Sequence record: OV876907
Direction: 5' to 3' (one strand)
Source of the DNA: Escherichia phage UGJNEcP3
Length of the DNA: 64,000 nucleotides
Position numbers and translations under genes: made by a program. The notes beneath the pieces were generated by a model. The model saw only the letters and a program-made list of their open reading frames with translations. It had not been told where the DNA came from and did not search any database. Shown in pieces: positions 11,163-40,187 of the stretch; positions within the stretch are counted from its first letter, which is position 1; each line of letters starts with the position of its first letter.

Positions 11163-12327
11163 CTAAATCCATCTCTTCTAAATCGTTTTCGATATCAGCA
11201 GCGCTTTGGGTATTTCCACCTAATTTAACAGCAACGTTCTTAGAGACGCGAGAGTTAATAAGGTCGTTAACCGCATCGTCAACTTCTTTAATAGAATTAA
11301 TTGCACCGAGCTTATACTTATTCTCGATTGCTTCACGGAACGGAGCATGTTTAAACAGCGGTCCCCAGAACTCAACGCAATCGGTAGCTTTAGCACGCCA
11401 TGCTTTTTCTTCTTGAACCATTTCACCTGTGGTTTCGTCAAGGAATGCACGATTATACCAGCCAGCTTTAGGTTTCACGACAAAGCCGATATCAGTAGCC
11501 ATTTCAAGCAATCCACTGAATGGGTCGATACCACCTTCGAAGTTAACGGTGATAGGGAACGTTGATTTCTCTTTAACCGTACGAGATTTCTCGGCCTTCA
11601 GTGTGAAGTCATAACCTGTGAGCTCGGTACCATCTTTAACCTGACGTTTAGAGATAAAGAATACGGTAGAAGCAGAGTACAGAATACCAGTACCACCACC
11701 CATAATCTCTTTAGGATACATTCCACCAATTTCCATAGCCGTGTGGTTAATTGCTACACAAGGAATATCCTTGATGGTCAGATAAGGCGTTACGATACGG
11801 AACAGAGATTTCAGTGACTTAGCACGAGTCATATCACCTACAACTTTCTCGTTCAAAGCATCTTCGGTTTCTTTCTTAGAAGCAGTGTTACCAATAGAGT
11901 CGATAAAGATAATAACCTTTTCGCCACGAGTAATTTCTTCTAACTGGTTGGTCATATCAACTTTAAGCTGTTCGACTGACTGGATTGGGGTATGAACCAC
12001 ACGTTCCAAATCAACACCCATCGAACGGAAATAAGATTCTGAAGCACCAAACTCAGAGTCATAGAACAAACAAATTGCGTCTGGATATTTCTTCATATAT
12101 GCCGCAACCATGGTAAGTCCAAACAACGTTTTAAAGTGCTTAGATGGAGCAGCAAAGATTGTCAAACCTGATTGTAAGCCTGCATTCAACGCACCACCCA
12201 ATGCAATATTCAGCATAGGGATACGAGTAGGAACTTCGTCACGACCATTAAACAATTTAGATTTGGTCAGGTCGGCAGTCATTTTAGAAGTAGAAGCTTT
12301 AATCAAACGGGATTTTAAATCAGACAT
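11155..12327 (-). CDS. uvsX: recombinase UvsX (RecA/Rad51 family)
   Basis: 390 aa; RecA-like core; position 41-40-uvsX as in T4. Confidence 0.85.
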   Translation of the reverse strand: MSDLKSRLIKASTSKMTADLTKSKLFNGRDEVPTRIPMLNIALGGALNAGLQSGLTIFAAPSKHFKTLFGLTMVAAYMKKYPDAICLFYDSEFGASESYFRSMGVDLERVVHTPIQSVEQLKVDMTNQLEEITRGEKVIIFIDSIGNTASKKETEDALNEKVVGDMTRAKSLKSLFRIVTPYLTIKDIPCVAINHTAMEIGGMYPKEIMGGGTGILYSASTVFFISKRQVKDGTELTGYDFTLKAEKSRTVKEKSTFPITVNFEGGIDPFSGLLEMATDIGFVVKPKAGWYNRAFLDETTGEMVQEEKAWRAKATDCVEFWGPLFKHAPFREAIENKYKLGAINSIKEVDDAVNDLINSRVSKNVAVKLGGNTQSAADIENDLEEMDLDD

Positions 12328-12404
12328 TATATTTTTCCATAGGCATCATTATATTTTACTCACGTTTTAAGATAGGGTAATTATATCACTTCACATTTAC
12401 AGCG

Positions 12405-13298
12405 TTAAAGGACCACGTCCTCATAACTTGGCATTTCGTGCTCAGAATGGATATGGGCACCGAAATAAATGAATTCAGCTAGACCAGGATGGAATACTAA
12501 ACCAGGATTCTCGTGATAAATGATATGAGGTCTTGATTTCAGAATCTGATAATATTCAACCTTACTAGGTTTGAATTTAATAATCTCTACATCAGGACGA
12601 TAGTCTTCACGTTTAAATGAATCATTCGGGTCGGTGATATAAAGGCGAGAACCTTCAGCTGCAGCTTGGTCTACAACTCTTTCGAATTGATAACATTTAT
12701 CAGAGATACGGAATGGATGGAAAATACCATCAATTTTAATAGGCGCTAGACCTTCAGAGTAACGCTCAATTACTGCGGGATTAATTACCTTTTGGTCTAC
12801 AAAAATCTTATCAGAGGACGCACCTCGTGACACCAGGACGTCTTTCTGGCATTGATTCAGGACTGTAGTATAAATCGAACGTTCAACTGAGGACACGTCG
12901 GTATCAATAAACTCGTCGATATAATAACGAGGAACTTCAGGGTCCATTGTAATGTTAAAGTTGAATTGTACAGTCTGAGTGCCATCATAACCTGTGATAT
13001 CGGTTACTAATCCTGAGCAGTCATAGTATTCGATTAACGAATCAACAACGAACTCGTTTTCAGACCAAAAATGTTTACGAGTTTCATAAGCATTTTCTTT
13101 ATACCAAAGCGGTACAAAATTCAGTTCAGGAAATAATTCAATGCATTCTTTGATATCGCTCGAATTTCTAGGATAAGCCAGATAATCACCTGGGCAAGCA
13201 CGGTTTAAATGGAGTTGAAAATTACCGTCCTTAAGGACGGCATATTCACCTGTTTCGTAACTACGCATACTGAAAATAGGAACGATAAACAGACTCAT
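12405..13298 (-). CDS. hypothetical protein in the beta-glucosyltransferase slot; candidate DNA-base transferase
   Basis: 297 aa; sits where T4 beta-gt lies (between uvsX and 42); no resemblance to T4 beta-gt seen by eye; ATGA overlap with gene 42 homolog. Confidence 0.5.
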   Translation of the reverse strand: MSLFIVPIFSMRSYETGEYAVLKDGNFQLHLNRACPGDYLAYPRNSSDIKECIELFPELNFVPLWYKENAYETRKHFWSENEFVVDSLIEYYDCSGLVTDITGYDGTQTVQFNFNITMDPEVPRYYIDEFIDTDVSSVERSIYTTVLNQCQKDVLVSRGASSDKIFVDQKVINPAVIERYSEGLAPIKIDGIFHPFRISDKCYQFERVVDQAAAEGSRLYITDPNDSFKREDYRPDVEIIKFKPSKVEYYQILKSRPHIIYHENPGLVFHPGLAEFIYFGAHIHSEHEMPSYEDVVL

Positions 13299-13993
13299 TT
13301 CAGGAATCCTCGAACATAGTCAAAATCACGTTCAAATACATGTGCACTAACCATAGTATGGGAATACGTACCCAGACCAACACCACACTGTTCAGCAATA
13401 AAGGCCATCAGTTTACCCTGCAGATAGAAATCCAGCTGCATAACGATAGCACAGTTCTGTGAACGCATATGAGTGTGTGCATACAGACGTCCATCACGAA
13501 TATAATATGTCACCGAATCGGTACAAGGATATTCTAAGGATTCGTCAGAATCAAGGAGGGCTTGGTCTTGTTCTTGGAGAATCTGGAACACAACTCTTCT
13601 TGAGTTAGGCTTCTCTTTAAGCTCTTTAAGTAAGGCTGGGAGTTGGGCCACAATTCGAGGTCCATAGAAAGTGTTGAAGTTTGCAGGCAATACGTCACTT
13701 TTCGGCTTATCAATGAACTTAGCAACATTAGGGTATTCCTTAAATGCTTCGGCGGCGTCAGTACCACCGGAAATCATAAACTTCCAGAAAGATTCGGCAT
13801 AATCATAGTTGATACGATTAATACGAGGGTCGGTGAATTTATAGGTGCTTGCATCCAGAACTTCAACTGAAGCCGAACCAATTTCATAACAACGACCGAT
13901 ACGAGAATCAACTGCAAACTGTGGAGCTTCCAGGATTTCTTCGTTCATTTGTTTAAATGCATTTTCAAAACTAACAGCGGTAATGTGTTTCAT
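13295..13993 (-). CDS. 42: deoxynucleotide hydroxymethylase (gene 42-like, thymidylate-synthase fold), divergent
   Basis: PNSRRVVFQ, PCTDSVTYYIRD (catalytic Cys), MRSQN...LD motifs; far more divergent from T4 than flanking core genes. Confidence 0.7.
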   Translation of the reverse strand: MKHITAVSFENAFKQMNEEILEAPQFAVDSRIGRCYEIGSASVEVLDASTYKFTDPRINRINYDYAESFWKFMISGGTDAAEAFKEYPNVAKFIDKPKSDVLPANFNTFYGPRIVAQLPALLKELKEKPNSRRVVFQILQEQDQALLDSDESLEYPCTDSVTYYIRDGRLYAHTHMRSQNCAIVMQLDFYLQGKLMAFIAEQCGVGLGTYSHTMVSAHVFERDFDYVRGFLK

Positions 13994-14526
13994 TTATTCA
14001 CCTCATAATTAATGTATTCATTAAGACGTTTTAATTCTACCATATCGACGTTAAGCAAGTTATTATGGCCGTCGTGATTTAAGATTTTAAACACGTTTTC
14101 AAAACATGTTTCATATTGGCGGATAGTTAGGTTGAACTCATCTTTAGTCAGTTTAATGAGGTCATCTTCAAAGTCTTTATCCAACGGATTACGGGTTAAA
14201 ATAACCTCAATGATATTGAATTCTTTTTTGAAATCAATCCAATCTGCTAGTTCTACATAAGGGTCCATTTCACCACGAAGGAATCCCGAGTAAACAATAT
14301 TACTAGGATAACCACGGTCTAGGATGTAAACGAAATTAGGGTCTAAAAACTTATACAACGTCTCGACTAAAGCCTTGTCATTATCAGTTCCTAACGAAAT
14401 ACATTTACCATTAATCTTTTTAGGAAAATCAATAAGACGATATTTCTTATCAGATAAAAGGGTTTCGATTAAAGTAGACTTCCCGGAATTATCCGGGCCG
14501 TCTATAACAATGATTTTTGGATTCAT
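13990..14526 (-). CDS. P-loop kinase (nucleotide/nucleoside-kinase-like)
   Basis: Walker A VIDGPDNSGKSTL near N-terminus; later DRGY motif; 178 aa. Confidence 0.55.
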   Translation of the reverse strand: MNPKIIVIDGPDNSGKSTLIETLLSDKKYRLIDFPKKINGKCISLGTDNDKALVETLYKFLDPNFVYILDRGYPSNIVYSGFLRGEMDPYVELADWIDFKKEFNIIEVILTRNPLDKDFEDDLIKLTKDEFNLTIRQYETCFENVFKILNHDGHNNLLNVDMVELKRLNEYINYEVNK

Positions 14527-14897
14527 GGATGATAGGCCTTATAACTATCAAGAGTTCCTTCGCGAACCATTTCTTTAAAGTGGTCAGGACGAATTGCTCG
14601 GTCATCGATGATAAAAGTATAACTCGGCTTGTGTGTAAGCAAATTGTGATATTTCAATCCAATTTTTTCAAGGTTCTTAACCAATGCAGGAACTACTTCA
14701 ACCAAGATTCGGCCTGGGCCGCATGAAGTCATACCACGGGCAGTGAACAATGTAATCTCATGACCTTCATCGTACAGCTTATTAATCATGGACACCATTT
14801 CGGTGTCCGGTTTAAAGTTTTCATAATCACGGTCATCTTGCCAGTGAGTAATGGTATTATCGATGTCAAAGCACAAATGCATTAAATTTTCTTCCAT
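14523..14897 (-). CDS. HAD-superfamily phosphatase-like protein
   Basis: N-terminal motif I LCFDIDNTIT (DxDxT); 124 aa. Confidence 0.5.
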   Translation of the reverse strand: MEENLMHLCFDIDNTITHWQDDRDYENFKPDTEMVSMINKLYDEGHEITLFTARGMTSCGPGRILVEVVPALVKNLEKIGLKYHNLLTHKPSYTFIIDDRAIRPDHFKEMVREGTLDSYKAYHP

Positions 14898-16555
14898 TGT
14901 TTGTGGAGTTCAGTAGAACCTGTAGGTTTATATTTTACACCAGTTTCCTGGTCAAGCAAAACCCACTTATCAGGGCATCGAGTGATAATTTGGGCCGTAA
15001 TAGGGTCACGAACTTCATCGACAAATTCACCTGTAATAAGCTTACGCTTACGAGGATGCCGCTTCAGCAGCACACTCAGTTGATATAGACCGTTGTAATA
15101 AGCGCCCAGAGCTTTCAGAGGGTTATTTTTAAAGTAACCTGCCAACGCCATCCAGATAACAGCAATCCAGAGCTTGTGCTTAAATGTACACATTGGAATA
15201 TCATCTAAAGGCATAACCTTTTCAATATCAACGAATACTCGAGTTCCATTACGAGTTAAGCCACCCCATAGAGGGTCAGAGTTAAATTTGTCATAACCAT
15301 CGATAGAATAAAGCACCTTAGCTTCATCATAAATCGCAGGGCCTTTAGAACTATTACCAAAATAACCGCGTGGGTCGATGATTTTAATATCACCTTCGTC
15401 CGACAGCATAATATTACTGTAGTGCGGGTCGCCGTGAATAAGTTGGTACGGTTCTTTATGTTCAGACAGAATTTCTAGTGCATGACGAAGAAGTTTTTCT
15501 GGGTCGCCTACCTTAAAGTCATTGACATGGGTAATGCCCTGTGGAGCAAAGCCTTCAATCAATCCAGCAATAGAAGCATTACGAATAAGGACCTTGTCCA
15601 ATACTTCTTTCTTAACATCGGAATACCATTGCTCATCGGATGGATTATCGATAGTTCCACCAAATGAACGTAATGCACTAATGACCTTATAAACCATGAG
15701 GACTTTAGTTTCTTTAGACATAAACCGATAGGCATCTGCCATGGTGCGACCAAAGATACGTTCCATTTTAATGAATTCACCTGGAGCAAAGTCTACAATG
15801 CTCGGAACAAATTCAGAATCAATAGAATTATACCAATTGATTTCTTTAGATTGGATTTCTTTACCTAATTCGTTGGTAGGTACTTTAATAGCCAGATTCT
15901 CAGTGAACTCTAATTTATTAAATTCACGGTTAATTTCAGAATCTTCATGGGCCTTAGCCAGTTTCAATTTGTCACCGACATCAACTACAAAGTCCAGCTT
16001 ACGTTCGGTCAAATGGACCATCGAATCTAGGTTATCAGCAAGGTCTTCGCCATAATTAGAACGGTTGAAGCCTGTCCAATTAGCCACCTGATACAAACCA
16101 ACCACACCACCGCCAGTACCAATTTCACGCAAGTACGGTTCTTCAAATGTAAAACGACAGTCAGTCCCGTAGGTATAGCAATAGTCGTTATCCCACTCAA
16201 CTTTATGACCCTCAGGAATGATGTCACACCAGTTAAACAAGACGTTATGGCCAATGATATCTTCAGCAATGCAATCGATAGCATGAGCTGAACCATTAGC
16301 CACATCTACGTTACGAATAGTGAATTTAGGCTTATCACTATTAATCATGTTAATGGATTTAATATAGCCTTTAACGAGGTCGTTAAATTTGCTGTGAATA
16401 ACCAGAATAATTTCATCTGATTGGTTACTATACAAATCATACAAATGTTTTAATACAGTATGTTGTTTGTAGTTAACCAATACCTTCGGGATTTCGTTAG
16501 TAATTGGATACAACCGTGAGCCAAGACCCGCGCCTAAAATAACAACCTTTTTCAT
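14882..16555 (-). CDS. bifunctional nucleotidyltransferase / APH-family (sugar- or choline-type) kinase
   Basis: N-terminal VILGAGLGSRLYPIT...PK (NDP-sugar pyrophosphorylase signature); C-terminal LIHGDPHYSNIML and IIDPRG (Brenner phosphotransferase motif); ATG 16555 with SD GAGGAA. Confidence 0.65.
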   Translation of the reverse strand: MKKVVILGAGLGSRLYPITNEIPKVLVNYKQHTVLKHLYDLYSNQSDEIILVIHSKFNDLVKGYIKSINMINSDKPKFTIRNVDVANGSAHAIDCIAEDIIGHNVLFNWCDIIPEGHKVEWDNDYCYTYGTDCRFTFEEPYLREIGTGGGVVGLYQVANWTGFNRSNYGEDLADNLDSMVHLTERKLDFVVDVGDKLKLAKAHEDSEINREFNKLEFTENLAIKVPTNELGKEIQSKEINWYNSIDSEFVPSIVDFAPGEFIKMERIFGRTMADAYRFMSKETKVLMVYKVISALRSFGGTIDNPSDEQWYSDVKKEVLDKVLIRNASIAGLIEGFAPQGITHVNDFKVGDPEKLLRHALEILSEHKEPYQLIHGDPHYSNIMLSDEGDIKIIDPRGYFGNSSKGPAIYDEAKVLYSIDGYDKFNSDPLWGGLTRNGTRVFVDIEKVMPLDDIPMCTFKHKLWIAVIWMALAGYFKNNPLKALGAYYNGLYQLSVLLKRHPRKRKLITGEFVDEVRDPITAQIITRCPDKWVLLDQETGVKYKPTGSTELHKQWKKI

Positions 16556-16615
16556 TATCTGTTCCTCAAGTGAATGTAGGTACATTATACACTATTTTTA
16601 ATAAATTGGTATTGC

Positions 16616-17116
16616 TTAAATCTTATCTTTACCGATTTCAATACACTGTTCTATTGCCGCCGGTACTTTGGTCTTGAGCTTATCGATTTGTTTCTTATAA
16701 TCACGAGCTTTACCGAAGCTCTCGGTTTCGAGCATTTCGTAATAACGAGCCTCGTGGATGGAAATCTGTAGATTGATATGGTTTACGCACATCGCATACA
16801 GTTTCTGCTTTTTGTACAAATCATCTTGGCGCTTCATTTCTGCCTGGTGTTTGGCTAGTACCGCTTCACGCTTAGACTCTTGTTCACGTTGGAATTCGAT
16901 TTCCCTTTGAGCATATTTTGCACAGTTATTACCACATTGATTATTAGCTCGGGTATACACAAGTCCAGAACCGGCACGGAATTTCATTTCGCCATCGAAT
17001 TGTTTCTGTTCAGCTGCGATACGAGCTTTACCAACTTCATCGGCTGAAACTGCATCACCATATTGGACCGCACAACCTGATAGGAGCATACTCATTGCGA
17101 TAATTAACTTTTTCAT
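16616..17116 (-). CDS. lipoprotein (signal MKKLIIAMSMLLSGC)
   Basis: lipobox LSGC; coiled-coil-rich mature part. Confidence 0.5.
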   Translation of the reverse strand: MKKLIIAMSMLLSGCAVQYGDAVSADEVGKARIAAEQKQFDGEMKFRAGSGLVYTRANNQCGNNCAKYAQREIEFQREQESKREAVLAKHQAEMKRQDDLYKKQKLYAMCVNHINLQISIHEARYYEMLETESFGKARDYKKQIDKLKTKVPAAIEQCIEIGKDKI

Positions 17117-17123
17117 AATATCC

Positions 17124-17261
17124 TCAATTAAAACAGTTATACTTAATTTGTGCTATAAGAATAATCCATCCTATGATTAATGTCGGAATCATTGGCGGAA
17201 TTGCCACTGCCCAATAAACGGTAAAGGCAGCCATTATAAGAAATAAAATAATTATCTTCAT
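17124..17261 (-). CDS. small hydrophobic protein (45 aa)
   Basis: ATGA overlap with imm stop; below ORF-track cut-off. Confidence 0.25.
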   Translation of the reverse strand: MKIIILFLIMAAFTVYWAVAIPPMIPTLIIGWIILIAQIKYNCFN

Positions 17262-17494
17262 TGTTTAACGATAATGATTTGTGCGGTTGATTTACGTTCA
17301 GCGACGATAGCCCAGATTAAAGCCACTACCCAACCAATCATCGTCCATCCTAACAGGAGATTAAGGAAGAAGATTCCGACATTGTTACGAGTGCCTCGCA
17401 GAAGAGCTAGAATCCATGGTAAGAAGTAAGCGATGAACATCATAACCAGAGAACCGAATCCTAAAACACCAGCACTAACGATTAAAGCTTCCAT
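17258..17494 (-). CDS. imm: superinfection immunity protein Imm
   Basis: 78 aa two-TM protein with ...FFLNLLLGWTMIGWVVALIWA... motif; position next to gene 43. Confidence 0.6.
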   Translation of the reverse strand: MEALIVSAGVLGFGSLVMMFIAYFLPWILALLRGTRNNVGIFFLNLLLGWTMIGWVVALIWAIVAERKSTAQIIIVKQ

Positions 17495-17526
17495 TGTAAT
17501 TTCCTCTTAAGTAGTTGTTAGGAAGG

Positions 17527-17556
17527 ATAATACCACGTTCCATGTGGTATGTAAAC
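17527..17556 (-). promoter_or_regulatory. promoter-like element GTTTAC-N18-TATTAT
   Basis: upstream of imm. Confidence 0.45.
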
Positions 17557-17558
17557 AC

Positions 17559-20270
17559 TTAAAAGTCAAACATGTCAAATAATGTTGCTTTTTTCTCGTA
17601 GTCGATTTTAGCAGACTCGGTGAAACCGGTAAGAGGTTTGATAAAGGTCTTTTGGAACAATACGTTGTAGTCCATCCAACGGAGGACTTGGTCACGAATC
17701 TGAACTGGAAGTTCAATACCTGATGGCCATGCCATACAAGCTTCACCGAACGGGTTGCCTTCTTTAAGTGGAAGTACATATACCTTTTCACCGTCGACGA
17801 TACGTGGCATAGTCAAATCACCAGCAGAAGCACGCATGTAAGCTAAGCAACCTTTGATGTGATACGGGCATTTAGAACCAGGGAATCCACCTTCATTATA
17901 TTTCTCGATGTTGTTAGCACTGGATACTGCTGCAATGCTTACATAGTTTAGTTCGTTAAATTCCTTATTAAACTGTTTGAAATATTCTTGCAAAGAGGCC
18001 TCGCCTTCCTGAAGCATACGACGGATACATTCTTTCAGAGCTTTCTGAACTGCTTTAGGTGTACTTGATTTCTGAGTTTCGAGACCCATGATTTTCAAGT
18101 GTGGTTCAGCATAACGAGTACCTTCCATGTCCCAAACGTTCAGTGCATAACGTTTCTTGCCTGTCCAGAATCCACCAAGACCTTTAGAACCAAGTGGAGG
18201 TCCTGCGATAGCTTCTCGGTCCATGAACATCAAGTGCTGTTTGTTGTTCATGTATTCACACATCTCACGGAAGCCTGCATCAATAGCAGGTTCCATACGT
18301 TCACGTGCAAATTTATCTAAGAAGTCGACCCAGTGGTTAGTATCACGGAATTTTTCTTCGCCAACTTTATTGATGATGGCATCTGCCTTAACATAAATGG
18401 AGTCAGTATCACCATAGAGCACGAACTTCTGGTTTTCAGTCTTGCACACTCTATTCAGATATTCGTTAACCTTACGTTCAATCCATTGGAGGGCCATTTG
18501 ACCAAACAGTGTGATTGCAGTTGCGTTCCTGAGGTCATAATAACGGAACCATACGTTACCAAGTGCACCATAAAGGGAGTTGATAAGCAACTTACGGTTA
18601 ATCTGAGCAGTGTTACCTGCAACTTCAGTGAGCTCGGCTTTCTTCAACATTTCTCTTAAAGAAGGCCCTGACAGTGCTTTAATCTGGGCTTTGATTTCGT
18701 CAGAGAAGTCAAAACGATAATCGATATCTAGTGGACTATCAACTGAGAGATTAGGATTTTCCAATGCTTCTTTAATTAACTCACCATTACGTTGAGCTGC
18801 AAGCATGTAACCTTTATGTTCTTTACGCTGCAAGAATACCTTGGTGATTTCTGTCGGAATCACACCTTCACGGTCTTTATAATACATCATGCCGTTAGGA
18901 GAGCAACTGTAGGTGTCGCTAGGACGCTGAGCAGTTCCGGCAATATATTCATGTATCGGTGCGTTGGCGAATGTCCCTGCGATGGTCTCTGGGCTTATAT
19001 TCACTTGCCGAATGATACTCGGGTACAGAGATGTAAGGTCAAAACTCATTACATATTTGTAAGCGTTAGGAATAGGTTCCTTAACGAAAGCACCAGGATA
19101 AGGTTGGACCACGTGTGAACGACCCTGTGGAATTACCTTGCCTTGTTCTTTAAGACTATTAAAGATAATAGCGTCCCAAGTCTTAATTGGACTGAACACC
19201 GACTGAATCTGCATCTTGGCATAATAACCCATGTCCAAACTCAGAAGAATGAACTGACGTTTCATATCAATCTGCACTACACGATATACGTCGATAATGT
19301 TATAGGAAATATATCGTTGGTGGTTCGTCTCACGTAACTTAGAGATTGGACCATCATATTTCAACTTACCTACTTTCAATTCATATTCAGAAACATAATC
19401 CAGAGAATAAGAAGGCTGGTTGGTAAAGCTGAATTTTTTATACAGGTCGATATAATCCAGAACAGAGATACCGAACAGTGTAATAATTTCACGAGCACCG
19501 TACATGTTCTCAATAACTTTAACACGAGTTTTACGATGCGGGCTTAATCGCTTAGCAGTGTTCTCACCGAACAGATTTTTCAGACGGTTATAAACGTACG
19601 GCACGTCAAATGACTCAACGTTCCACCCAGTCAAAATCACAGGAGTTTTCTGTTGCCAGAAATTCAGGTACTCAAGCATCATTTCTTCTTCAGAATTAAA
19701 CGAAAGATAAACGATTTTGTCAATGATTTCCTGTGGAACTTCGTCACCACCTTCGTCTTGGAGTTTCTCAGCGATTTTAATCGACCACTCTTCAACAGTA
19801 CCATAAGGCGAAACTAAAAGGTCGAATACATAGAATTTATCGTCAATCGAGTCGTAGTGGGTAATGGCATCGATAGGATGTTTAGCCTGAGCTGGTTCAG
19901 GGAATCCATCAGGAGATGTTACCTCGATGTCGAAGTTAGCAATACGAATCTTAGAAGAATCATATTTGATTTCTTTACGATAGGTATCAGACAAATAGGC
20001 TAATTTATAGTCGTCCATACCCAGGGCTTCGAGACCCATATCGTCCATACGTTTCATCCATTGGGATGCATCACGCATAGAGTCGAATTCTTTCTTAACA
20101 CAACCCTTACCATAGATATCAATGTATTTTACGGCTTGCTCTGGATTGGCATGCATAAACATTGTAGGCTTGTATGGAACTTCACGACTACGTTCGTTAC
20201 CATTTTTATCGATGTAACGTTCGAGAATATTATCACCGATTTGTTCGACTGTCAAATAGAATTCTTGCAT
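17559..20270 (-). CDS. 43: DNA polymerase (gene 43, family B)
   Basis: exo motif FDIE, DLTSLYPSII, KLLINSLYG, YGDTDS; track ORF starts at a TTG 60 nt upstream; ATG at 20270 with SD AAGGAAA matches T4 N-terminus. Confidence 0.9.
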   Translation of the reverse strand: MQEFYLTVEQIGDNILERYIDKNGNERSREVPYKPTMFMHANPEQAVKYIDIYGKGCVKKEFDSMRDASQWMKRMDDMGLEALGMDDYKLAYLSDTYRKEIKYDSSKIRIANFDIEVTSPDGFPEPAQAKHPIDAITHYDSIDDKFYVFDLLVSPYGTVEEWSIKIAEKLQDEGGDEVPQEIIDKIVYLSFNSEEEMMLEYLNFWQQKTPVILTGWNVESFDVPYVYNRLKNLFGENTAKRLSPHRKTRVKVIENMYGAREIITLFGISVLDYIDLYKKFSFTNQPSYSLDYVSEYELKVGKLKYDGPISKLRETNHQRYISYNIIDVYRVVQIDMKRQFILLSLDMGYYAKMQIQSVFSPIKTWDAIIFNSLKEQGKVIPQGRSHVVQPYPGAFVKEPIPNAYKYVMSFDLTSLYPSIIRQVNISPETIAGTFANAPIHEYIAGTAQRPSDTYSCSPNGMMYYKDREGVIPTEITKVFLQRKEHKGYMLAAQRNGELIKEALENPNLSVDSPLDIDYRFDFSDEIKAQIKALSGPSLREMLKKAELTEVAGNTAQINRKLLINSLYGALGNVWFRYYDLRNATAITLFGQMALQWIERKVNEYLNRVCKTENQKFVLYGDTDSIYVKADAIINKVGEEKFRDTNHWVDFLDKFARERMEPAIDAGFREMCEYMNNKQHLMFMDREAIAGPPLGSKGLGGFWTGKKRYALNVWDMEGTRYAEPHLKIMGLETQKSSTPKAVQKALKECIRRMLQEGEASLQEYFKQFNKEFNELNYVSIAAVSSANNIEKYNEGGFPGSKCPYHIKGCLAYMRASAGDLTMPRIVDGEKVYVLPLKEGNPFGEACMAWPSGIELPVQIRDQVLRWMDYNVLFQKTFIKPLTGFTESAKIDYEKKATLFDMFDF

Positions 20271-34889: not shown

Positions 34890-35097
34890 TATCTTCTCGC
34901 TCAAATTTATGTTTGCAATGTCGGCATTTGTAACGAAGATTACTAGACTGCCAATGGACCAGTTGGACTTGTTCGGTTCCGCATTCCGGACAGTTAGGAA
35001 CATTCTTGGAAGCTTGTTCACGGCGATGAACCATAGCCATCACAGCATCCCAATCAGGAATAGTTTGGTCAATATCGTCAGCTAATTGATATTTCAT
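34876..35097 (-). CDS. zinc-ribbon protein (73 aa)
   Basis: CPECG...CRHCKH. Confidence 0.4.
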
Positions 35098-36104
35098 TTC
35101 AACAGCTCCAGAGCTTGTTCAAGGCGGTCTAAACGATTAGTAGACTCTTCCCAAAGTTTCTTGGCAGCAGTATATTGTCCAGTCAGTTTTTTGTTAATAG
35201 CAAGGGCGTCTTTATACGCTTTTTCCAGAGCAACGACTTCTGGTAACTTGGATTTAGTAATTGGTGTAGGGACCATGATAGGGCTGTTCAAGTCGTTAAT
35301 CAAGTCTTCTAATGTAGCAGGCTCTTTATCAGTATTCACAATTTCCTCACATTTTTCTTGGTAAATTTCAGCATCGGTTTTTGGAACATGACATTTGATT
35401 TCACGGACTGTTACTAAAACTTCATATCCTTTCCAGCCTAAGTGGTGTTTAACTTCTTGGGTCTCATATTTCTCTACGGTATCCATCAGAGCTAAAGCCT
35501 GTTCGATAGTATTCAAGGTATCGTAAGCAATATCTTGATACTTTACAACTTCTGGCTCATCTTTAGGTTTCCGGTTTGGTGACCAGATAACGGAAATAAG
35601 CACCTTTCCTTTATAGGCGTTTGTTTTAATCATGCAATTTGCCATAGGATGAATGGTGCGGCTATCACCAGCAACTACTGTTTTAGTGGCGGCTTTGAGG
35701 ATTAATGCAGAGTTAGCCTTGAATTCAGCGGCCCAACGTTGTGGAAATAAACTACTAGGGTCCATACCTTTAATTTTGACATAACCTTTTATGGTATCGC
35801 CAAACCATTTGTAGCTAACAACATGGCTAGAACCAGGATATTTCTCTCTACCAAACTCAGAAAGGATGTCCTTATTGACCAGCCGCGAAAGCAGTCGAGA
35901 ACCTTTAAATGTATCTACGATATCATTAATAAACAAGCGACCCGCGATCTTTTCGATTTCAGCTTTGAAACAGCGCGATAATGCATCATCAATTTGGTCG
36001 ACCCATTTATTGATATTAGAAACTATTACCACATATGGGGTTAATGGAGGGGTATTGGCAGTGATATACGTAGTAAAGGCATTGATGTATTCGGTACGAG
36101 TCAT
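35094..36104 (-). CDS. hypothetical protein (336 aa)
   Basis: large ORF; no motif recognised. Confidence 0.5.
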   Translation of the reverse strand: MTRTEYINAFTTYITANTPPLTPYVVIVSNINKWVDQIDDALSRCFKAEIEKIAGRLFINDIVDTFKGSRLLSRLVNKDILSEFGREKYPGSSHVVSYKWFGDTIKGYVKIKGMDPSSLFPQRWAAEFKANSALILKAATKTVVAGDSRTIHPMANCMIKTNAYKGKVLISVIWSPNRKPKDEPEVVKYQDIAYDTLNTIEQALALMDTVEKYETQEVKHHLGWKGYEVLVTVREIKCHVPKTDAEIYQEKCEEIVNTDKEPATLEDLINDLNSPIMVPTPITKSKLPEVVALEKAYKDALAINKKLTGQYTAAKKLWEESTNRLDRLEQALELLK

Positions 36105-36161
36105 GATATTCTCCTCAAGTTGATAGAAAGATTATACTCCATCCGTCCTTGGATGTAAACA

Positions 36162-37067
36162 TTATTTTAGAGCTAATACTGCAGCGCGAAGCTTATCACG
36201 TTGGAGTTCCATGTTCTTGATGCGAATCAATACGTCTTGAATGCTCTTTTTCTCATCTTCAATCTGACCATTTAAACGGTGGATTGATTCCTGAATGCTA
36301 TCTGCATAATAGGTCTCAATAGGTTTCATCGTAGGGTTAGTAACAACCAAAGAATTATCAGGTTTAATTTTCCAATGATATGGTTCGGAATTGAATGGAC
36401 TAGGCACAGCAGTGGTTTTGAATTTGTCATAGGCTGCATACTGGGCTACACTGTCACATGATACTGTAGAGGTAGCGATAGATATACGACGTTCCATTTG
36501 TGGGTCCTTTTGTTGGGATTGATAAGGGGCATAAGACAAAAGATATTCACGAGTTAGTTTAACATTAAAATACACCGCATCAGCCCGTCCAGAACAATCA
36601 GCATATTCATCGGTTGTAACTTTATATGATTCTACGGCCTTAATACGAGTCATTGCTTCTCTGAATAAGGTTTCGAATGCTTCACGAAGGGCCTTATTAC
36701 CTTTTGAGGTAGGACGGAAACGAACTTGAATACCGTCAGCCAGAATATTAATGACTAGGTTACGAGCCGTAAAATTAATACTTTTGATATTAACAGGAAC
36801 CGTAGAAATACGTCCTGCGGTAGCCAAGAGGTCTTTGATATTAGCCCGCAATGTTGCACCAAACAGGTGGGCTGGGCAACGGCAATAATCGTTCAAAGAA
36901 CCGATATAAGTTCCTTTACGTCCTACACCATAAGTATAATTACCATTACGAATATAGCCAAAGTCGGCTAGCCGATCGATAGCGATACGACGAGTCGTGT
37001 CATGGTCGTATATAGAGTATTCTTTACGTGTTTTAATGTTCATATTAAAGTCCAAATAATTTTTCAT
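36162..37067 (-). CDS. hypothetical protein (301 aa)
   Basis: large ORF; no motif recognised. Confidence 0.5.
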   Translation of the reverse strand: MKNYLDFNMNIKTRKEYSIYDHDTTRRIAIDRLADFGYIRNGNYTYGVGRKGTYIGSLNDYCRCPAHLFGATLRANIKDLLATAGRISTVPVNIKSINFTARNLVINILADGIQVRFRPTSKGNKALREAFETLFREAMTRIKAVESYKVTTDEYADCSGRADAVYFNVKLTREYLLSYAPYQSQQKDPQMERRISIATSTVSCDSVAQYAAYDKFKTTAVPSPFNSEPYHWKIKPDNSLVVTNPTMKPIETYYADSIQESIHRLNGQIEDEKKSIQDVLIRIKNMELQRDKLRAAVLALK

Positions 37068-37245
37068 AGAATTTAGCGATTGGCCAGGTTATAATAAAAA
37101 CTATCCCAAACATAACAAGAACTGGCCAGATAAAGGTGGCAAACACTGCTTCACCACCTGAGTTAATTTCCATATGATTACGACCAATAAGGACAGTAAT
37201 GAATCCTAATGCAAGGTACAGAAGAATAAAACCTGCGATTTCCAT
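37045..37245 (-). CDS. small membrane protein (66 aa)
   Basis: two hydrophobic segments. Confidence 0.4.
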   Translation of the reverse strand: MEIAGFILLYLALGFITVLIGRNHMEINSGGEAVFATFIWPVLVMFGIVFIITWPIAKFYEKLFGL

Positions 37246-37247
37246 AA

Positions 37248-38093
37248 TTAATCCTTAAGAAGATTTAAAATATCTGTATATTTCCTACGTTCAGCCTTAG
37301 CTTTAGCGTTCAGACCAGAGAGTCGGAAAATCTCATCATCTTGTTGTTGGATTGTAACATTCAAGCAAGTAAGCAAATTGCTAAAATACTCGATTTGAGC
37401 TTGATGCTTCTCATTGCTGCGCACTGGTACAGGTTCTGGTTTAGGAGCTTGTTCTGAAGGCTCTTCAGCCAGGTCTTTAATTTTATAAAGTTTAATACGC
37501 TGACCCACTCCAGTTTCGGCATCACCGAAACTAAGAACACCATGCTGTTCTAATTCAGACAGGGCCAAGCGCAGATGGAACTTCCAGTTGTCGTATTGAC
37601 ACCCACTGTAATGGGAAATAGTATACTCATTTTCATTTCCTGGGTGGTTAACAATATTAAAGATAATCCAATCACCTGAGCCATTGGTCTTAAAGGTCAT
37701 TTGTTTATCAAGACCTTTTGCAAGGCGAGCGCCAAGAGCCAGTAGACGTCGTTGGTTGGCATTAAGGTCTTGAACAACTTCGTCAAATGACATCGCCGGG
37801 ATTAAACGACCATAAAGGTCGTAGCCTTTGTTATAATTTTTAAGAATAATTTTGGCATTAGCACGAGACAACATACCTGTTTTACGAAGAGTTTTCATGA
37901 CCCGGTCTTCTAAGGTAAAAGACCCTTTGGTCTTTTCAAAGATTTTAGTGAAGTCATCTTTAACAGTACAAACATTGAACTTGTCCCACATCATATATAG
38001 AACCTTTTCAACTACTTCTTTAGAACTCGGAATACGACCAAATTTAATAACTTTTTTAACTTCAGAACGAATTTGATTAATTGCCTGTGACAT
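37248..38093 (-). CDS. hypothetical protein (281 aa)
   Basis: ORF. Confidence 0.5.
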   Translation of the reverse strand: MSQAINQIRSEVKKVIKFGRIPSSKEVVEKVLYMMWDKFNVCTVKDDFTKIFEKTKGSFTLEDRVMKTLRKTGMLSRANAKIILKNYNKGYDLYGRLIPAMSFDEVVQDLNANQRRLLALGARLAKGLDKQMTFKTNGSGDWIIFNIVNHPGNENEYTISHYSGCQYDNWKFHLRLALSELEQHGVLSFGDAETGVGQRIKLYKIKDLAEEPSEQAPKPEPVPVRSNEKHQAQIEYFSNLLTCLNVTIQQQDDEIFRLSGLNAKAKAERRKYTDILNLLKD

Positions 38094-38156
38094 AATAATT
38101 TCCTCAGTAAGTAATTAAGAACCTAGAACCATTATACCATCCTTGGTATAAAGCGT

Positions 38157-38681
38157 TTATGCGAGAACCGTCTTTAAACGCTCTTCAAATTTCTGAAGCA
38201 GAACTTGGCGTTCAGCTCGTTGTGATTTGTACTGCTCGATACGACCTGAAGTGAGGGCGTACTGTTCGTTTACTGATTCCCGCATGAATTCAGGAATCTC
38301 TTTACAAGCTTTGATTTCGTCAAACTTATCAATAACAGCTTGTTGTTCAGCAATCAGATTATCGAAATAAGCGATATCAGATTTAACGTTTGCCAGGTCA
38401 GATTCGGTAGGCATTAAACGTTTGTTACGTTCAGCTTGATAAGCTTGATTGGTTTCACGGCTCCAGTGAAGAGTACGTTTTTTGTTAGTGTTTTTATAGA
38501 GCTCTACAATACCAACTGAATCGATGACTGCAATCCAGTTCCAACGGCTTTTGTAAATCTCTCCTCCAGATACGGTAATCTCATTACCACAAGCAACGTC
38601 GTTAAAGAACTTGCTTTGTTTTTCAGATTTGAAATTACCGTTGTTGAAATTAATCAGTGAAAAAATATCTTTAGCGTTCAT
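38157..38681 (-). CDS. hypothetical protein (174 aa)
   Basis: ORF. Confidence 0.45.
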   Translation of the reverse strand: MNAKDIFSLINFNNGNFKSEKQSKFFNDVACGNEITVSGGEIYKSRWNWIAVIDSVGIVELYKNTNKKRTLHWSRETNQAYQAERNKRLMPTESDLANVKSDIAYFDNLIAEQQAVIDKFDEIKACKEIPEFMRESVNEQYALTSGRIEQYKSQRAERQVLLQKFEERLKTVLA

Positions 38682-38707
38682 GATAACCTCCAGTAGTTGA
38701 TAGGTCT

Positions 38708-38736
38708 ATAGTATCATTTCTACTGGAGATGTAAAC
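38708..38736 (-). promoter_or_regulatory. promoter-like element GTTTAC-N17-TACTAT flanked by 9-bp inverted repeat
   Basis: ctccagtag (38688-38696) / ctactggag (38721-38729) bracket the -10. Confidence 0.5.
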
Positions 38737-38738
38737 AA

Positions 38739-39080
38739 CTAATAGAAACTTTTTTCACCGGATTGTCCACTAAACCATGCTGATTGGGTGTTCTCTTTCC
38801 GTTGATGTTCAATACGAATGCGATATTCATTCCTGATGGCGCAGAGTTCACCTCGGAAGTCGCCTGCCAACTTTACCTGCTTGCGGTCTAGATTTATTAA
38901 GGCCTGGGTCTTCGCTGCCAAGAGCAGTCTCTTGTAGTCTCCTTCTTCACAATCAGTTTTATAAACTCTATTAGTATATCCATCGATAAGTTCTTTATCA
39001 TAGTCCTCGACAGACTGTTTCATGGCTTTGGAAAAAGTCTGACCTGCGTTATAAAGATTGTAAATAAATTGTTCGAACAT
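38739..39080 (-). CDS. hypothetical protein (113 aa)
   Basis: ORF. Confidence 0.45.
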   Translation of the reverse strand: MFEQFIYNLYNAGQTFSKAMKQSVEDYDKELIDGYTNRVYKTDCEEGDYKRLLLAAKTQALINLDRKQVKLAGDFRGELCAIRNEYRIRIEHQRKENTQSAWFSGQSGEKSFY

Positions 39081-39090
39081 AATTTCACCT

Positions 39091-40146
39091 TTATTTCAGA
39101 AGTGTAACTTCAGCGATTTCGCTCCAGTCATTTTTATCGGTGGCAATGAAATCCGCCAGATAAAGAGCTGTACGTAATGATACGTTACGAAGACGAGATA
39201 CATTAGCCTTCATCCAGGACAGTGCTTGATAAGTCTCGGCATCAGTCAGACCACGGTTTTGCATCATATCAGTGGACAGGATAACGTCTTCAACACGAAC
39301 CATAATCTCTTCGTTAGAGTGAACTCCGAGGTCTAAGTAAACTGAACGAGATACTAAAGCCTGGAGGTGTGGAGCAAGTTTAGTTCCACGCTCTAATTCA
39401 CGGTCAATATCAACGTTGGTGATGAACACGATGGTGCCTTCGTATTCGAATTCTTTATCGATATTTTTATCATCAAGGTAAGAACTTGAAGTGCTCCAGC
39501 ACACCTTACGTTTTTCACCGGTATCCAATGCTGCTTTTAACAGGTTCAGGATATCCATATCAGAGAATACATCAACATCATCAATAAGAAGAACACTATT
39601 AGGGCCGCGGTTATTCCAAAGCTGCTCGTAAAGACCGATTCCACTAATCTTTCCGTTGATTGATTTATATTCGATAGTTTCATTTTCGTGGGCATTTTGT
39701 AATGCTTTATCCAAAGAGTACGTTTTACCAATACCTGCTGCACCAGAGATGATAAGGGAACGAATTTTACCATCGATGATTCCATTAGTCATCATATTCA
39801 TTACTTTAAAACGTTTGTTGATGCGGTGTTTCATTTCATCCTGGGATTCAGTTACGACTACAGGAGATTCAGTACCTTCCATTTCGATGTCACATTTGAA
39901 CACCCATACACCACGTTCAACACCATCAATCTGTACAAATACCTTGCCATCACCGAGATGAGCTTCGGATTCATGAATTTTATTAGGGAACCAGGTTTTA
40001 CCTGAACTCATGAACGTACCAGAGATTTCATTACCGCGATAGATGCCTTTGTTGATTTTGATAGTTAACATTTTATTCTCCATTTCACTCAGTAGATTTG
40101 ATAGGTCCATAATAACATGCTCTACGAGGTTGTAAACACTTTTTTG
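39091..40146 (-). CDS. AAA-type P-loop ATPase
   Basis: Walker A ISGAAGIGKTYSL, Walker B VLLIDDVD; start at second ATG of ATGGAGAATAAAATG leader. Confidence 0.55.
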   Translation of the reverse strand, partial: QKSVYNLVEHVIMDLSNLLSEMENKMLTIKINKGIYRGNEISGTFMSSGKTWFPNKIHESEAHLGDGKVFVQIDGVERGVWVFKCDIEMEGTESPVVVTESQDEMKHRINKRFKVMNMMTNGIIDGKIRSLIISGAAGIGKTYSLDKALQNAHENETIEYKSINGKISGIGLYEQLWNNRGPNSVLLIDDVDVFSDMDILNLLKAALDTGEKRKVCWSTSSSYLDDKNIDKEFEYEGTIVFITNVDIDRELERGTKLAPHLQALVSRSVYLDLGVHSNEEIMVRVEDVILSTDMMQNRGLTDAETYQALSWMKANVSRLRNVSLRTALYLADFIATDKNDWSEIAEVTLLK

Positions 40147-40187
40147 CACTAGACCCAAAAAAGGACCCTTCTGGGTCCTAAATTTAG

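What the first reader, a model, noticed from the sequence alone, without database searches (positions are those of the whole stretch)
14882..16555. Fused nucleotidyltransferase and APH-type kinase suggests a one-protein donor-activation pathway
The N-terminus carries the GxGxRLxPxT...PK signature of sugar-phosphate or choline-phosphate nucleotidyltransferases. The C-terminus carries the HGDxxxxN Brenner motif and a downstream catalytic Asp, as in aminoglycoside, choline and anomeric sugar kinases. Such fusions make NDP-sugar or CDP-choline from a free substrate in two steps. Which substrate is used here cannot be read from the sequence, and with the adjacent HAD phosphatase it could be a sugar-phosphate salvage route.
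Basis: partly seen in the sequence, partly recalled or inferred. Interest (0 to 1): 0.85.

Follow-up and report, generated by a model that had tools for sequence, protein, structure and literature searches.

The report
Phage UDP-arabinose synthase for DNA decoration
This gene is a T4-like phage's two-in-one enzyme (sugar kinase plus nucleotidyltransferase) that most likely makes the activated arabinose used to coat the phage's cytosines; the enzyme family was described and biochemically characterised in related phages in 2018-2026, so this is an ordinary new member, not a new system.

Summary

The window is Escherichia phage UGJNEcP4 (Dhakavirus). The protein aligns end to end (43% identity, E 2e-144) with the gene that by position and size corresponds to AfhE in phage HY126, and with RB69 gp52:53. 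PMC13326640, citing He et al. 2026, reports AfhE as a bifunctional D-arabinose-5-phosphate kinase / UDP-arabinose pyrophosphorylase.

The four genes downstream are orthologs of the rest of that pathway: HAD phosphatase (61%), nucleotide kinase (37%), 5-hydroxy-dCMP synthase (79%) and DNA arabinosyltransferase (67%).

It is an NDP-sugar route tied to DNA modification. But the substrate can be inferred, and by analogy with HY126 the HAD is the middle step between the two fused activities, not a salvage add-on.

One local twist: this genus lacks the phage arabinose-5-P isomerase and the second transferase.

Verdict: new member of a known kind, low interest.

The parts
14882..16555 (-). AfhE-like bifunctional enzyme, 557 aa: predicted D-arabinose-5-phosphate 1-kinase plus arabinofuranose-1-phosphate uridylyltransferase (UDP-arabinose pyrophosphorylase)
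   Evidence: Pfam NTP_transferase and APH. Full-length match to phrog_4098, E 3.4e-269. 43% identity over 1-557 against 1-562 of the HY126 gene at the AfhE position, E 2e-144. 44% and 41% to RB69 p053 and p052. AF2 model pLDDT 94.8.
15941..16555 (-). N-terminal sugar-1-phosphate nucleotidyltransferase domain (residues 1 to about 205), with the GxGxRLxPxT...PK signature and invariant W109, D111, D192, G194, D195 and K198
15056..15940 (-). C-terminal protein-kinase-like (APH/choline kinase type) domain (residues about 206-500), with invariant K224, E238, H374-G-D376, N381 and D394
14885..15055 (-). Conserved C-terminal tail (residues about 501-557, short beta strands). Its role is unknown.
   Evidence: Aligned and conserved with RB69 and HY126 to the last residue. 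Modelled with pLDDT 86-93.
16556..16572 (-). Ribosome-binding region: GAGGA 6 nt upstream of the ATG at 16555. A TATAAT hexamer lies further upstream.
   Evidence: Read directly from the sequence. The promoter scan of the region gave no excess over shuffles, 17 found against 18.2 expected, so the promoter is not established.
14523..14882 (-). AfhF-like cap-less HAD phosphatase, 119 aa. Predicted arabinose-1,5-bisphosphate 5-phosphatase. Its start overlaps the fusion's stop codon (TAATG).
   Evidence: 61% identity to RB69 gp51 and to the HY126 gene directly downstream of the fusion. 58% to the Thanatos ortholog. DxDxT motif at residues 6-10. TIGR01689 capsule-biosynthesis phosphatase E 6.4e-14, below its cutoff. 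Overlap seen.
13990..14526 (-). Thymidylate-kinase-like P-loop nucleotide kinase, 178 aa, ortholog of RB69 gp45. Its exact role in the pathway is unknown.
   Evidence: 37% identity to RB69 p045, E 3e-35. phrog_761.
13295..13993 (-). Thymidylate-synthase-family enzyme, 232 aa, ortholog of the experimentally verified 5-hydroxy-dCMP synthase RB69 gp48. It supplies the acceptor base.
   Evidence: 79% identity to RB69 p048, E 1e-145. Pfam Thymidylat_synt. RB69 gp48 activity reported in PMC13326640.
12405..13298 (-). Predicted DNA arabinosyltransferase 1, 297 aa. It would consume the UDP-arabinose made by the fusion.
   Evidence: 67% full-length identity to the HY126 ortholog. 69% to RB69 p047. 51% to Thanatos TH1_063. 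phrog_3891. No Pfam hit.

Best explanation
The gene encodes the Dhakavirus ortholog of AfhE (HY126) / gp52:53 (RB69) / gp82 (DLP3). This is the sugar-activating enzyme of the phage pathway that decorates 5-hydroxycytosine in virion DNA with D-arabinofuranose.

Proposed mechanism:
1. The C-terminal kinase domain uses ATP to phosphorylate C1 of D-arabinose-5-phosphate, giving arabinofuranose-1,5-bisphosphate. Here the arabinose-5-phosphate presumably comes from the host isomerases KdsD/GutQ, because this phage has no isomerase of its own.
2. The translationally coupled HAD phosphatase encoded directly downstream removes the 5-phosphate.
3. The N-terminal nucleotidyltransferase domain condenses arabinofuranose-1-phosphate with UTP to give UDP-arabinofuranose.
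4. The 297-aa transferase encoded three genes downstream puts the arabinose on 5-hydroxycytosine. That base enters the DNA through the ThyA-like 5-hydroxy-dCMP synthase of the same cluster.

Shown here: domain architecture, folds, conserved catalytic residues, full-length orthology and conserved gene context.
Taken from the literature: the activities of AfhE, AfhF and gp48.
Inferred: that this ortholog keeps the same substrates, that A5P comes from the host, and that the DNA carries a single arabinose.
For: - Two-domain architecture with both Pfam domains above threshold.
- The catalytic Lys/Glu/HxD/N/D set and the GxGxR...PK motif are invariant in 84 homologs.
- 43% identity over the full length, E 2e-144, to the HY126 gene that sits between the A5P isomerase and the HAD. 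44% and 41% to the two halves of RB69 gp52:53.
- PMC13326640 reports AfhE as a dual D-arabinose-5-phosphate kinase / UDP-D-arabinose pyrophosphorylase and AfhF as the Mg-dependent phosphatase acting on Araf1,5P.
- The four downstream genes are orthologs of the rest of the pathway at 61%, 37%, 79% and 67-69%. All five genes have overlapping stop/start codons.
- Homologs occur in phages reported (by PMC13326640) to carry arabinosylated cytosine: Serratia 92A1 at 47% and Shewanella Thanatos at 44%. In Thanatos the gene is essential (PMC12838424).
- Independent Rosetta-stone evidence: cellular 922-946-aa proteins fuse HAD, SIS isomerase and NTase Pfam domains to a region homologous to the window protein over 89% of its length, so including the kinase part. 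In cyanophage S-SRM01 a SIS gene abuts the fusion homolog.
- 133 of 159 columns that are at least 90% conserved in the AfhE-like clade are identical in the window's clade.
- PMC13326640 lists Dhakaviruses among the groups with the syntenic cluster.
Against: - No biochemical or nucleoside data exist for any Dhakavirus in the literature I could search.
- Identity to the characterised enzyme is only 43%. The window's clade carries some non-conservative changes at otherwise conserved positions: E85V, F116G and N150G in the transferase domain, and N378H inside the HGDxxxxN loop.
- The phage lacks the arabinose-5-phosphate isomerase that accompanies the enzyme in HY126, RB69 and DLP3, so the supply of the proposed substrate is not encoded locally.
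- He et al. 2026 could not be read directly. The reaction order rests on its summary in PMC13326640, whose own Table 1 still lists the alternative order.
- That the HY126 562-aa gene is AfhE is inferred from its position, its size and the paper's description, not from a stated accession.
Confidence: 0.8

Rival explanations
1. Same pathway and product, but in the order the first reader implied, which is also the order listed in Table 1 of PMC13326640. The HAD first dephosphorylates arabinose-5-phosphate to free arabinose. The kinase domain then acts as an anomeric kinase on the free sugar, and the transferase domain follows directly. That would make a true two-step, one-protein activation like AmgK/MurU or NahK/GlmU.
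For: - Table 1 of PMC13326640 annotates RB69 gp51 as 'dephosphorylates Araf5p to Ara' and the C-terminal domain as 'Phosphorylates Ara to Araf1p'.
- The closest kinase folds act on unphosphorylated small molecules: choline, glucosamine, maltose and aminoglycosides.
- Fusion of two enzymes usually suggests consecutive steps (inference).
Against: - The text of the same paper, citing biochemical work on HY126, states that AfhE phosphorylates Araf5P to Araf1,5P and that AfhF then dephosphorylates it to Araf1P.
- The HAD resembles bisphosphate phosphatases of the GmhB type according to that paper.
- The NDP-heptose pathway provides an exact precedent for isomerase, then C1 kinase, then bisphosphate phosphatase, then nucleotidyltransferase (established knowledge).
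Confidence: 0.1
2. The Dhakavirus enzyme has diverged in specificity. With no phage arabinose-5-phosphate isomerase available, it activates another abundant host pentose phosphate (for example ribose-5-phosphate via ribose-1,5-bisphosphate) or uses a nucleotide other than UTP. The DNA would then carry a different sugar from that of RB69 and HY126.
For: - No isomerase, U32-like gene or second transferase in this genome.
- Only 43% identity to AfhE.
- Clade-specific non-conservative substitutions at otherwise conserved positions, including E85V in the transferase domain and N378H in the kinase catalytic loop.
- No chemistry is published for this genus.
Against: - E. coli makes arabinose-5-phosphate constitutively for Kdo synthesis via KdsD and GutQ (established knowledge), so a phage isomerase is not required.
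- The Thanatos locus also shows no SIS gene near its cluster, and PMC13326640 describes that phage as mono-arabinosylated.
- The HAD (61%) and the transferase (67%) are much closer to their arabinose-pathway orthologs than the fusion is.
- 84% of strongly conserved columns, and all catalytic residues, are retained.
Confidence: 0.07
3. It is unrelated to DNA. It could be a LicA/LicC-like CDP-choline or other NDP-alcohol pathway, a GlmU-like cell-wall enzyme that modifies the host surface, or an antibiotic kinase.
For: - Several phage records annotate homologs as 'bifunctional protein GlmU'.
Against: - NCBIfam GlmU, MurU, HddC and RmlA models all score far below their cutoffs. For example, glmU scores 21.8 bits against 366.85, and MurU 23.9 against 370.
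- There is no acetyltransferase beta-helix domain in the model.
- The gene is embedded, with overlapping reading frames, in a nucleotide and DNA modification cluster between uvsX and the DNA polymerase gene.
- The family co-occurs with 5-hydroxy-dCMP synthase and DNA arabinosyltransferases.
Confidence: 0.02

Closest known systems
AfhE of Escherichia phage HY126 (He et al., Nat Chem Biol 2026, as summarised in PMC13326640), together with RB69 gp52:53 (ORF53_52c of Thomas et al. 2018, PMC6024577) and DLP3 gp82
   Same: - Same length and two-domain order (557 against 562 aa).
- Alignable end to end at 43% identity.
- Same catalytic residues.
- Followed directly by the same HAD phosphatase.
- Same genomic slot between uvsX and gene 43, and the same partner genes: 5-hydroxy-dCMP synthase, arabinosyltransferase 1 and a TMK-like kinase.
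   Different: - A different genus (Dhakavirus, not Mosigvirus).
- Gene order is rearranged.
- The cluster has no arabinose-5-phosphate isomerase, no U32-like gene and no second (RB69p003-type) transferase.
- A handful of clade-specific substitutions.
- No experimental data for this ortholog.
NDP-heptose pathway: GmhA (SIS isomerase), HldE kinase domain or HddA, GmhB (HAD), HldE adenylyltransferase domain or HddC
   Same: - Identical chemical logic: isomerase makes a sugar omega-phosphate, a kinase adds the anomeric phosphate, a HAD phosphatase removes the distal phosphate, and a nucleotidyltransferase makes the NDP-sugar.
- HldE is likewise a kinase-nucleotidyltransferase fusion whose two steps are separated by the HAD step (established knowledge).
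   Different: - Seven-carbon sugar for LPS and capsule, not a pentose for DNA.
- The HldE kinase is of the ribokinase fold and HddA is a GHMP kinase, not the APH/protein-kinase-like fold (established knowledge).
- The NCBIfam HddC model scores 19.8 bits against a cutoff of 300, so the window protein is not a member.
AmgK/MurU (MurNAc recycling) and LicA/LicC (phosphocholine activation)
   Same: - An APH/choline-kinase-fold small-molecule kinase paired with an RmlA-fold nucleotidyltransferase to make an NDP-activated donor.
   Different: - Separate proteins rather than a fusion.
- They act on unphosphorylated substrates in two consecutive steps with no intervening phosphatase.
- Their products serve the cell wall or surface, not DNA.
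- Sequence models are far below threshold (MurU 23.9 bits against 370).
T4 alpha- and beta-glucosyltransferase system (glucosyl-hydroxymethylcytosine)
   Same: A T4-like phage, the same genomic neighbourhood (gene 42 / beta-gt slot between uvsX and gene 43), and the same purpose: a sugar coat on a modified cytosine that blocks host nucleases (PMC6024577; established knowledge).
   Different: T4 uses host UDP-glucose and needs no donor-synthesis genes. Its base is 5-hydroxymethyl-C, not 5-hydroxy-C. Here the phage must make its own unusual donor, which is why the fusion enzyme and HAD exist.

Membership tests
AfhE / RB69 gp52:53 family (phrog_4098; bifunctional arabinose-5-P kinase / UDP-arabinose pyrophosphorylase) | A single polypeptide of about 550-565 aa with an N-terminal sugar-1-P nucleotidyltransferase domain and a C-terminal APH-type kinase domain | tested here: met
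AfhE / RB69 gp52:53 family (phrog_4098; bifunctional arabinose-5-P kinase / UDP-arabinose pyrophosphorylase) | Full-length sequence homology to the characterised members | tested here: met
   HY126 562-aa gene: 43% identity, 1-557 against 1-562, E 2e-144. RB69 p053 44% and p052 41%. Serratia 92A1 47% and Thanatos TH1_060 44%.
AfhE / RB69 gp52:53 family (phrog_4098; bifunctional arabinose-5-P kinase / UDP-arabinose pyrophosphorylase) | Catalytic residues of both domains intact | tested here: met
   G10, R14, P17, P23, K24, D111, D192 and D195 in the transferase domain; K224, E238, H374, D376, N381 and D394 in the kinase domain. All are invariant in 84 sequences.
AfhE / RB69 gp52:53 family (phrog_4098; bifunctional arabinose-5-P kinase / UDP-arabinose pyrophosphorylase) | Encoded next to an AfhF-type HAD phosphatase and clustered with a 5-hydroxy-dCMP synthase and a DNA arabinosyltransferase, between uvsX and the DNA polymerase gene | tested here: met
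   Orthologs at 61%, 79% and 67-69%. Layout.
AfhE / RB69 gp52:53 family (phrog_4098; bifunctional arabinose-5-P kinase / UDP-arabinose pyrophosphorylase) | Accompanied by a phage-encoded arabinose-5-phosphate isomerase. This is a feature of the HY126, RB69 and DLP3 clusters, not of the enzyme itself. | tested here: not met
   tblastn of RB69 p055 against the window gave only noise, E above 1. No such annotation in the rest of the genome. No SIS domain in candidate ORFs. Among phage records, 276 carry the isomerase and 367 the fusion.
AfhE / RB69 gp52:53 family (phrog_4098; bifunctional arabinose-5-P kinase / UDP-arabinose pyrophosphorylase) | Enzymatic activities: ATP-dependent C1 phosphorylation of D-arabinose-5-P, and UTP plus arabinofuranose-1-P giving UDP-arabinofuranose | not testable with these tools
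   Requires recombinant protein assays. Activity is known only for HY126 AfhE, via PMC13326640.
AfhE / RB69 gp52:53 family (phrog_4098; bifunctional arabinose-5-P kinase / UDP-arabinose pyrophosphorylase) | Virion DNA carries arabinosylated 5-hydroxycytosine | not testable with these tools
   No nucleoside analysis of any Dhakavirus was found in the literature searched.
GlmU (an annotation used for homologs in several phage records) | Uridyltransferase domain plus a C-terminal left-handed beta-helix acetyltransferase domain; NCBIfam TIGR01173 above its cutoff | tested here: not met
   TIGR01173 scores 21.8 bits against a cutoff of 366.85, and only over residues 3-101. The C-terminal half is a kinase fold, not a beta helix.
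MurU / AmgK | MurU equivalog score; a separate AmgK anomeric MurNAc/GlcNAc kinase | tested here: not met
LicA / LicC (choline kinase / CTP:phosphocholine cytidylyltransferase) | Sequence membership of the choline kinase and LicC families; a choline-related context | tested here: not met
HddC / HldE (NDP-heptose synthesis) | HddC equivalog score; a ribokinase-fold or GHMP-fold heptose kinase | tested here: not met
   NF049965 scores 19.8 bits against a cutoff of 300. The kinase domain here is of the APH/protein-kinase-like fold.
Fucokinase / GDP-fucose pyrophosphorylase (FKP) | N-terminal pyrophosphorylase fused to a C-terminal GHMP-family kinase | not tested

The most novel reading that the evidence does not exclude
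The Dhakavirus version is a stripped-down, host-dependent variant: five overlapping genes, no phage arabinose-5-phosphate isomerase, no U32-like gene and a single transferase. Its kinase-transferase fusion, at 43% identity to AfhE and with substitutions such as E85V and N378H, may have shifted specificity to another host pentose phosphate or nucleotide. In that case these common coliphages would carry a cytosine sugar not yet described.
Probability: 0.08. Interest if true: 0.55.

Novelty: new member of a known kind. Interest (0 to 1): 0.2.

Why it matters
The practical value is mainly for annotation. Public records label the five genes as 'hypothetical protein' (the fusion and the transferase), 'phosphoheptose isomerase', 'thymidylate kinase' and 'thymidylate synthase'. 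Homologs of the fusion in other phage records are labelled 'GlmU'. PHROGs lists the fusion's family as unknown function. The whole block can now be read as a UDP-arabinose / arabinosyl-5-hydroxycytosine DNA-modification module.

For Dhakaviruses, which are candidates for phage therapy, this predicts three things:
- DNA that resists many restriction enzymes and Cas nucleases but is exposed to type IV systems that target the modification.
- Dependence on host arabinose-5-phosphate supply.
- Probably a single arabinose rather than the di- or tri-arabinose chains of RB69 and DLP3.

None of this changes current understanding of the system.

Tried and rejected
1. Searched the window by tblastn for RB69's arabinose-5-P isomerase (p055), U32-like protein (p050) and second arabinosyltransferase (p003). 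Only noise came back, E above 1. Annotation of the rest of the genome and Pfam scans of 18 larger unannotated ORFs found no SIS or glycosyltransferase domain. A whole-genome tblastn was not possible because loci fetched by accession did not reach the sandbox.
2. The promoter and terminator scan of 12200-17600 showed no excess over shuffles, 17 against 18.2 expected. The upstream TATAAT is therefore not claimed as a promoter.
4. The primary papers (He et al. 2026, Nat Chem Biol; Mahler et al. 2025, Cell Host Microbe) are not held. Their results are used only as summarised in PMC13326640.
5. Searched for any Dhakavirus nucleoside chemistry and found none.
6. Rejected the database labels 'GlmU', 'phosphoheptose isomerase' (for the HAD) and plain 'thymidylate synthase' or 'thymidylate kinase' as functional descriptions.
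7. The context of a distant homolog on a 310-kb contig (P0107) looked like a jumbo phage rather than a bacterium and added little.
Full report
**What the window is.** The 64-kb window is 100% identical to Escherichia phage UGJNEcP4 (OV877765.1, positions 12639-76638). This is a T4-like phage of the genus Dhakavirus, and it is 95-96% identical to QL01, WG01, Bp7 and MX01. The finding lies in the variable region between uvsX and the DNA polymerase gene (gene 43).

**Checking the observation.** The coordinates 14882-16555 (minus strand) match the annotated CDS exactly.
- The mechanical ORF extends to 16585. The ATG at 16555 has a GAGGA Shine-Dalgarno 6 nt upstream, the earlier ATG lies inside a TATAAT hexamer, and every homolog starts at the MKK position. 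The product is therefore 557 aa.
- Pfam finds NTP_transferase (E 2.5e-8) and APH (E 1.3e-5), both above their gathering scores.
- In an alignment of 84 homologs down to about 30% identity, the residues invariant include G10, R14, L15, P17, P23, K24, W109, D111, D192, G194 and D195 in the N-terminal half. In the C-terminal half they include K224, E238, H374, G375, D376, S380, N381 and D394. That is the complete catalytic set of a protein-kinase-like small-molecule kinase plus the signature of sugar-1-phosphate nucleotidyltransferases.

**Fold.** An AlphaFold2 model built on that alignment has mean pLDDT 94.8 and pTM 0.91.

| Domain | Best matches |
|---|---|
| C-terminal (Foldseek) | APH(2'')-IIIa, E 1.9e-7 |

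Foldseek agrees for the N-terminal domain as well. No full-length solved structure of this architecture was found.

**What it is.** The family is already in the literature.
- Thomas et al. 2018 (PMC6024577) showed that RB69 ORF053c and ORF052c are one 561-residue gene split by a sequencing error. They proposed it as a candidate for UDP-arabinose synthesis.
- PMC13326640 (NAR 2026) showed that RB69 and DLP3 DNA carry arabinosylated 5-hydroxycytosine and that the ThyA homolog (RB69 gp48) is a 5-hydroxy-dCMP synthase.
- The same paper summarises He et al. 2026. [quoted passage not shown] AfhF, a Mg-dependent HAD phosphatase, converts arabinofuranose-1,5-bisphosphate to the 1-phosphate.
- I fetched both loci. 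The window protein aligns from first to last residue with the HY126 562-aa gene lying between the isomerase and the HAD, at 43% identity and E 2e-144. It also aligns with the two halves of RB69 gp52:53, at 44% and 41%.
- It is a full-length member of phrog_4098, which PHROGs still lists as unknown function. NCBIfam has no model for it.

**Context.** The four genes downstream, all with overlapping stop and start codons (1, 4, 4 and 4 nt), are orthologs of the rest of the pathway.

| Window gene | Predicted role | Ortholog identity |
|---|---|---|
| 14523-14882 | HAD phosphatase | 61% to RB69 gp51 and the HY126 gene at the AfhF position |
| 13990-14526 | TMK-like nucleotide kinase | 37% to RB69 gp45 |
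| 13295-13993 | 5-hydroxy-dCMP synthase | 79% to RB69 gp48 |
| 12405-13298 | arabinosyltransferase 1 | 67-69% to HY126 and RB69 |

PMC13326640 names Dhakaviruses among the groups that share this syntenic cluster.

**Independent support for the arabinose-5-phosphate link.**
- The homolog search found cellular proteins of 922-946 aa with HAD, SIS and nucleotidyltransferase Pfam domains on one chain. They align with the window protein over 89% of its length, so the kinase region is included. One of them sits next to glycosyltransferase genes.
- In cyanophage S-SRM01 a SIS gene directly abuts the fusion homolog.
- Homologs at 44-47% identity occur in Serratia phage 92A1 and Shewanella phage Thanatos. 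PMC13326640 describes both as carrying arabinosylated cytosine, while the Thanatos authors themselves reported a deoxypentose. In Thanatos the homolog TH1_060 is essential for propagation.

**Mechanism proposed.**
1. The kinase domain phosphorylates C1 of D-arabinose-5-phosphate.
2. The downstream, translationally coupled HAD removes the 5-phosphate.
3. The nucleotidyltransferase domain makes UDP-arabinofuranose.
4. The 297-aa transferase puts arabinose on 5-hydroxycytosine in DNA.

Architecture, folds, catalytic residues, orthology and synteny are shown here. The activities come from the literature on orthologs. Their retention in this ortholog is inferred. The logic matches the NDP-heptose pathway step for step (GmhA, HldE or HddA, GmhB, HldE or HddC), where a fused kinase-transferase is likewise interrupted by a HAD step. 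That comparison rests on established knowledge, and it is analogy, not membership, because the NCBIfam HddC model scores far below its cutoff.

It is right about the fusion, the NDP-sugar product and the link to DNA modification. It is wrong, or outdated, in three respects.
- The substrate can be inferred.
- It is a sugar phosphate, not a free sugar.
- The HAD is the obligate middle step, not a salvage route.

A rival order (HAD first, then an anomeric kinase on free arabinose) still appears in Table 1 of PMC13326640. It cannot be excluded from sequence alone, and I give it 0.1.

**What is different here.** This phage has no homolog of three genes found in the RB69 and HY126 clusters.

| Missing gene | Evidence |
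|---|---|
| RB69 p055, arabinose-5-phosphate isomerase | tblastn of the window negative; no SIS domain in ORFs tested; no such annotation genome-wide |
| RB69 p050, U32-like protein | tblastn of the window negative |
| RB69 p003, second arabinosyltransferase | tblastn of the window negative; only small ORFs between rIIA and gene 39 |

- Across the phage collection the fusion occurs in 367 records and the isomerase in 276. The Klebsiella phages whose fusion is 80% identical to this one are largely missing from the isomerase list.
- The Thanatos locus likewise shows no SIS gene near its cluster.
- The simplest reading is reliance on host KdsD/GutQ for arabinose-5-phosphate, and a single arabinose per cytosine.
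- 133 of 159 strongly conserved columns are retained in the window's clade. The exceptions include E85V, F116G, N150G and N378H. They leave a small chance, about 0.07-0.08, of altered sugar or nucleotide specificity.
- No nucleoside chemistry for any Dhakavirus was found.

**Verdict.** The feature is real and correctly spotted, but it is an ortholog of a described and recently characterised enzyme family in a published type of gene cluster. It is a new member of a known kind. Interest is low (0.2). Its main value is correcting annotation and predicting the DNA chemistry and host dependence of Dhakaviruses.

Noticed in passing
window 14523-14882 (-): The HAD phosphatase is annotated 'phosphoheptose isomerase' in this and many other phage records, including RB69p051. 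The label comes from phrog_1238. The protein has a DxDxT HAD motif and resembles a capsule-biosynthesis phosphatase (TIGR01689), so the isomerase name looks like a propagated misannotation.
   Followed up: partly
window 12405-16555 (-); whole genome OV877765.1: The Dhakavirus modification module has only five tightly overlapping genes. It lacks the phage arabinose-5-phosphate isomerase, the U32-like gene and the second (RB69p003-type) transferase found in RB69 and HY126. In the phage collection, 367 records carry the fusion and only 276 the isomerase. This implies host-supplied arabinose-5-P and probably mono-arabinosylation.
   Followed up: partly
P0068, P0077, P0094; locus L009 8001-10775: Cellular or metagenomic proteins of 922-946 aa carry HAD, SIS isomerase and nucleotidyltransferase Pfam domains on one chain. 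They are homologous to the window protein over 89% of its length. One lies next to several glycosyltransferase genes. They look like a single-protein version of the whole ribulose-5-P to NDP-arabinose route.
   Followed up: partly
locus L010 12961-13863 (Shewanella phage Thanatos TH1_063) against window 12405-13298: TH1_063, reported in PMC12838424 as a 'UDP-xylose pyrophosphorylase', is the 51%-identical ortholog of the gene that PMC13326640 assigns as DNA arabinosyltransferase 1. The two published functional assignments for this family disagree.
   Followed up: partly
window 14882-16555 (-), residues 85, 116, 150, 326, 378, 456: The window's clade (with Klebsiella and Providencia phage relatives at 72-80% identity) carries non-conservative changes at positions that are at least 90% conserved in the AfhE-like clade. 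These include E85V next to near-invariant D84, and N378H inside the HGDxxxxN catalytic loop. The consequence for specificity is unknown.
   Followed up: no
window 16616-17116 (-): A 166-aa ORF with a lipoprotein-like signal peptide (MKKLIIAMSMLLSGC), phrog_1754, unknown function. It sits between the modification cluster and an Imm-like superinfection-immunity gene (17258-17494).
   Followed up: no
window 39091-40110 (-) and 40188-41186 (-): Two adjacent unannotated genes: a 339-aa AAA/STAND-like NTPase with a C-terminal HTH, and a 332-aa RlaP-family (RNA-repair-pathway, pol-beta-type) nucleotidyltransferase. They lie within a block of large hypothetical genes (35094-41186) that has no T4 counterpart I could name.
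   Followed up: no
Synechococcus phage S-SRM01 (MW015081.1 / NC_070963.1) 195190-197180: A distant homolog of the fusion (25% identity) lies immediately downstream of a SIS-domain gene in a cyanophage. Homologs at 27-28% also occur in large Vibrio and Tenacibaculum phages. The pathway may extend well beyond T4-like enterobacterial phages.
   Followed up: no
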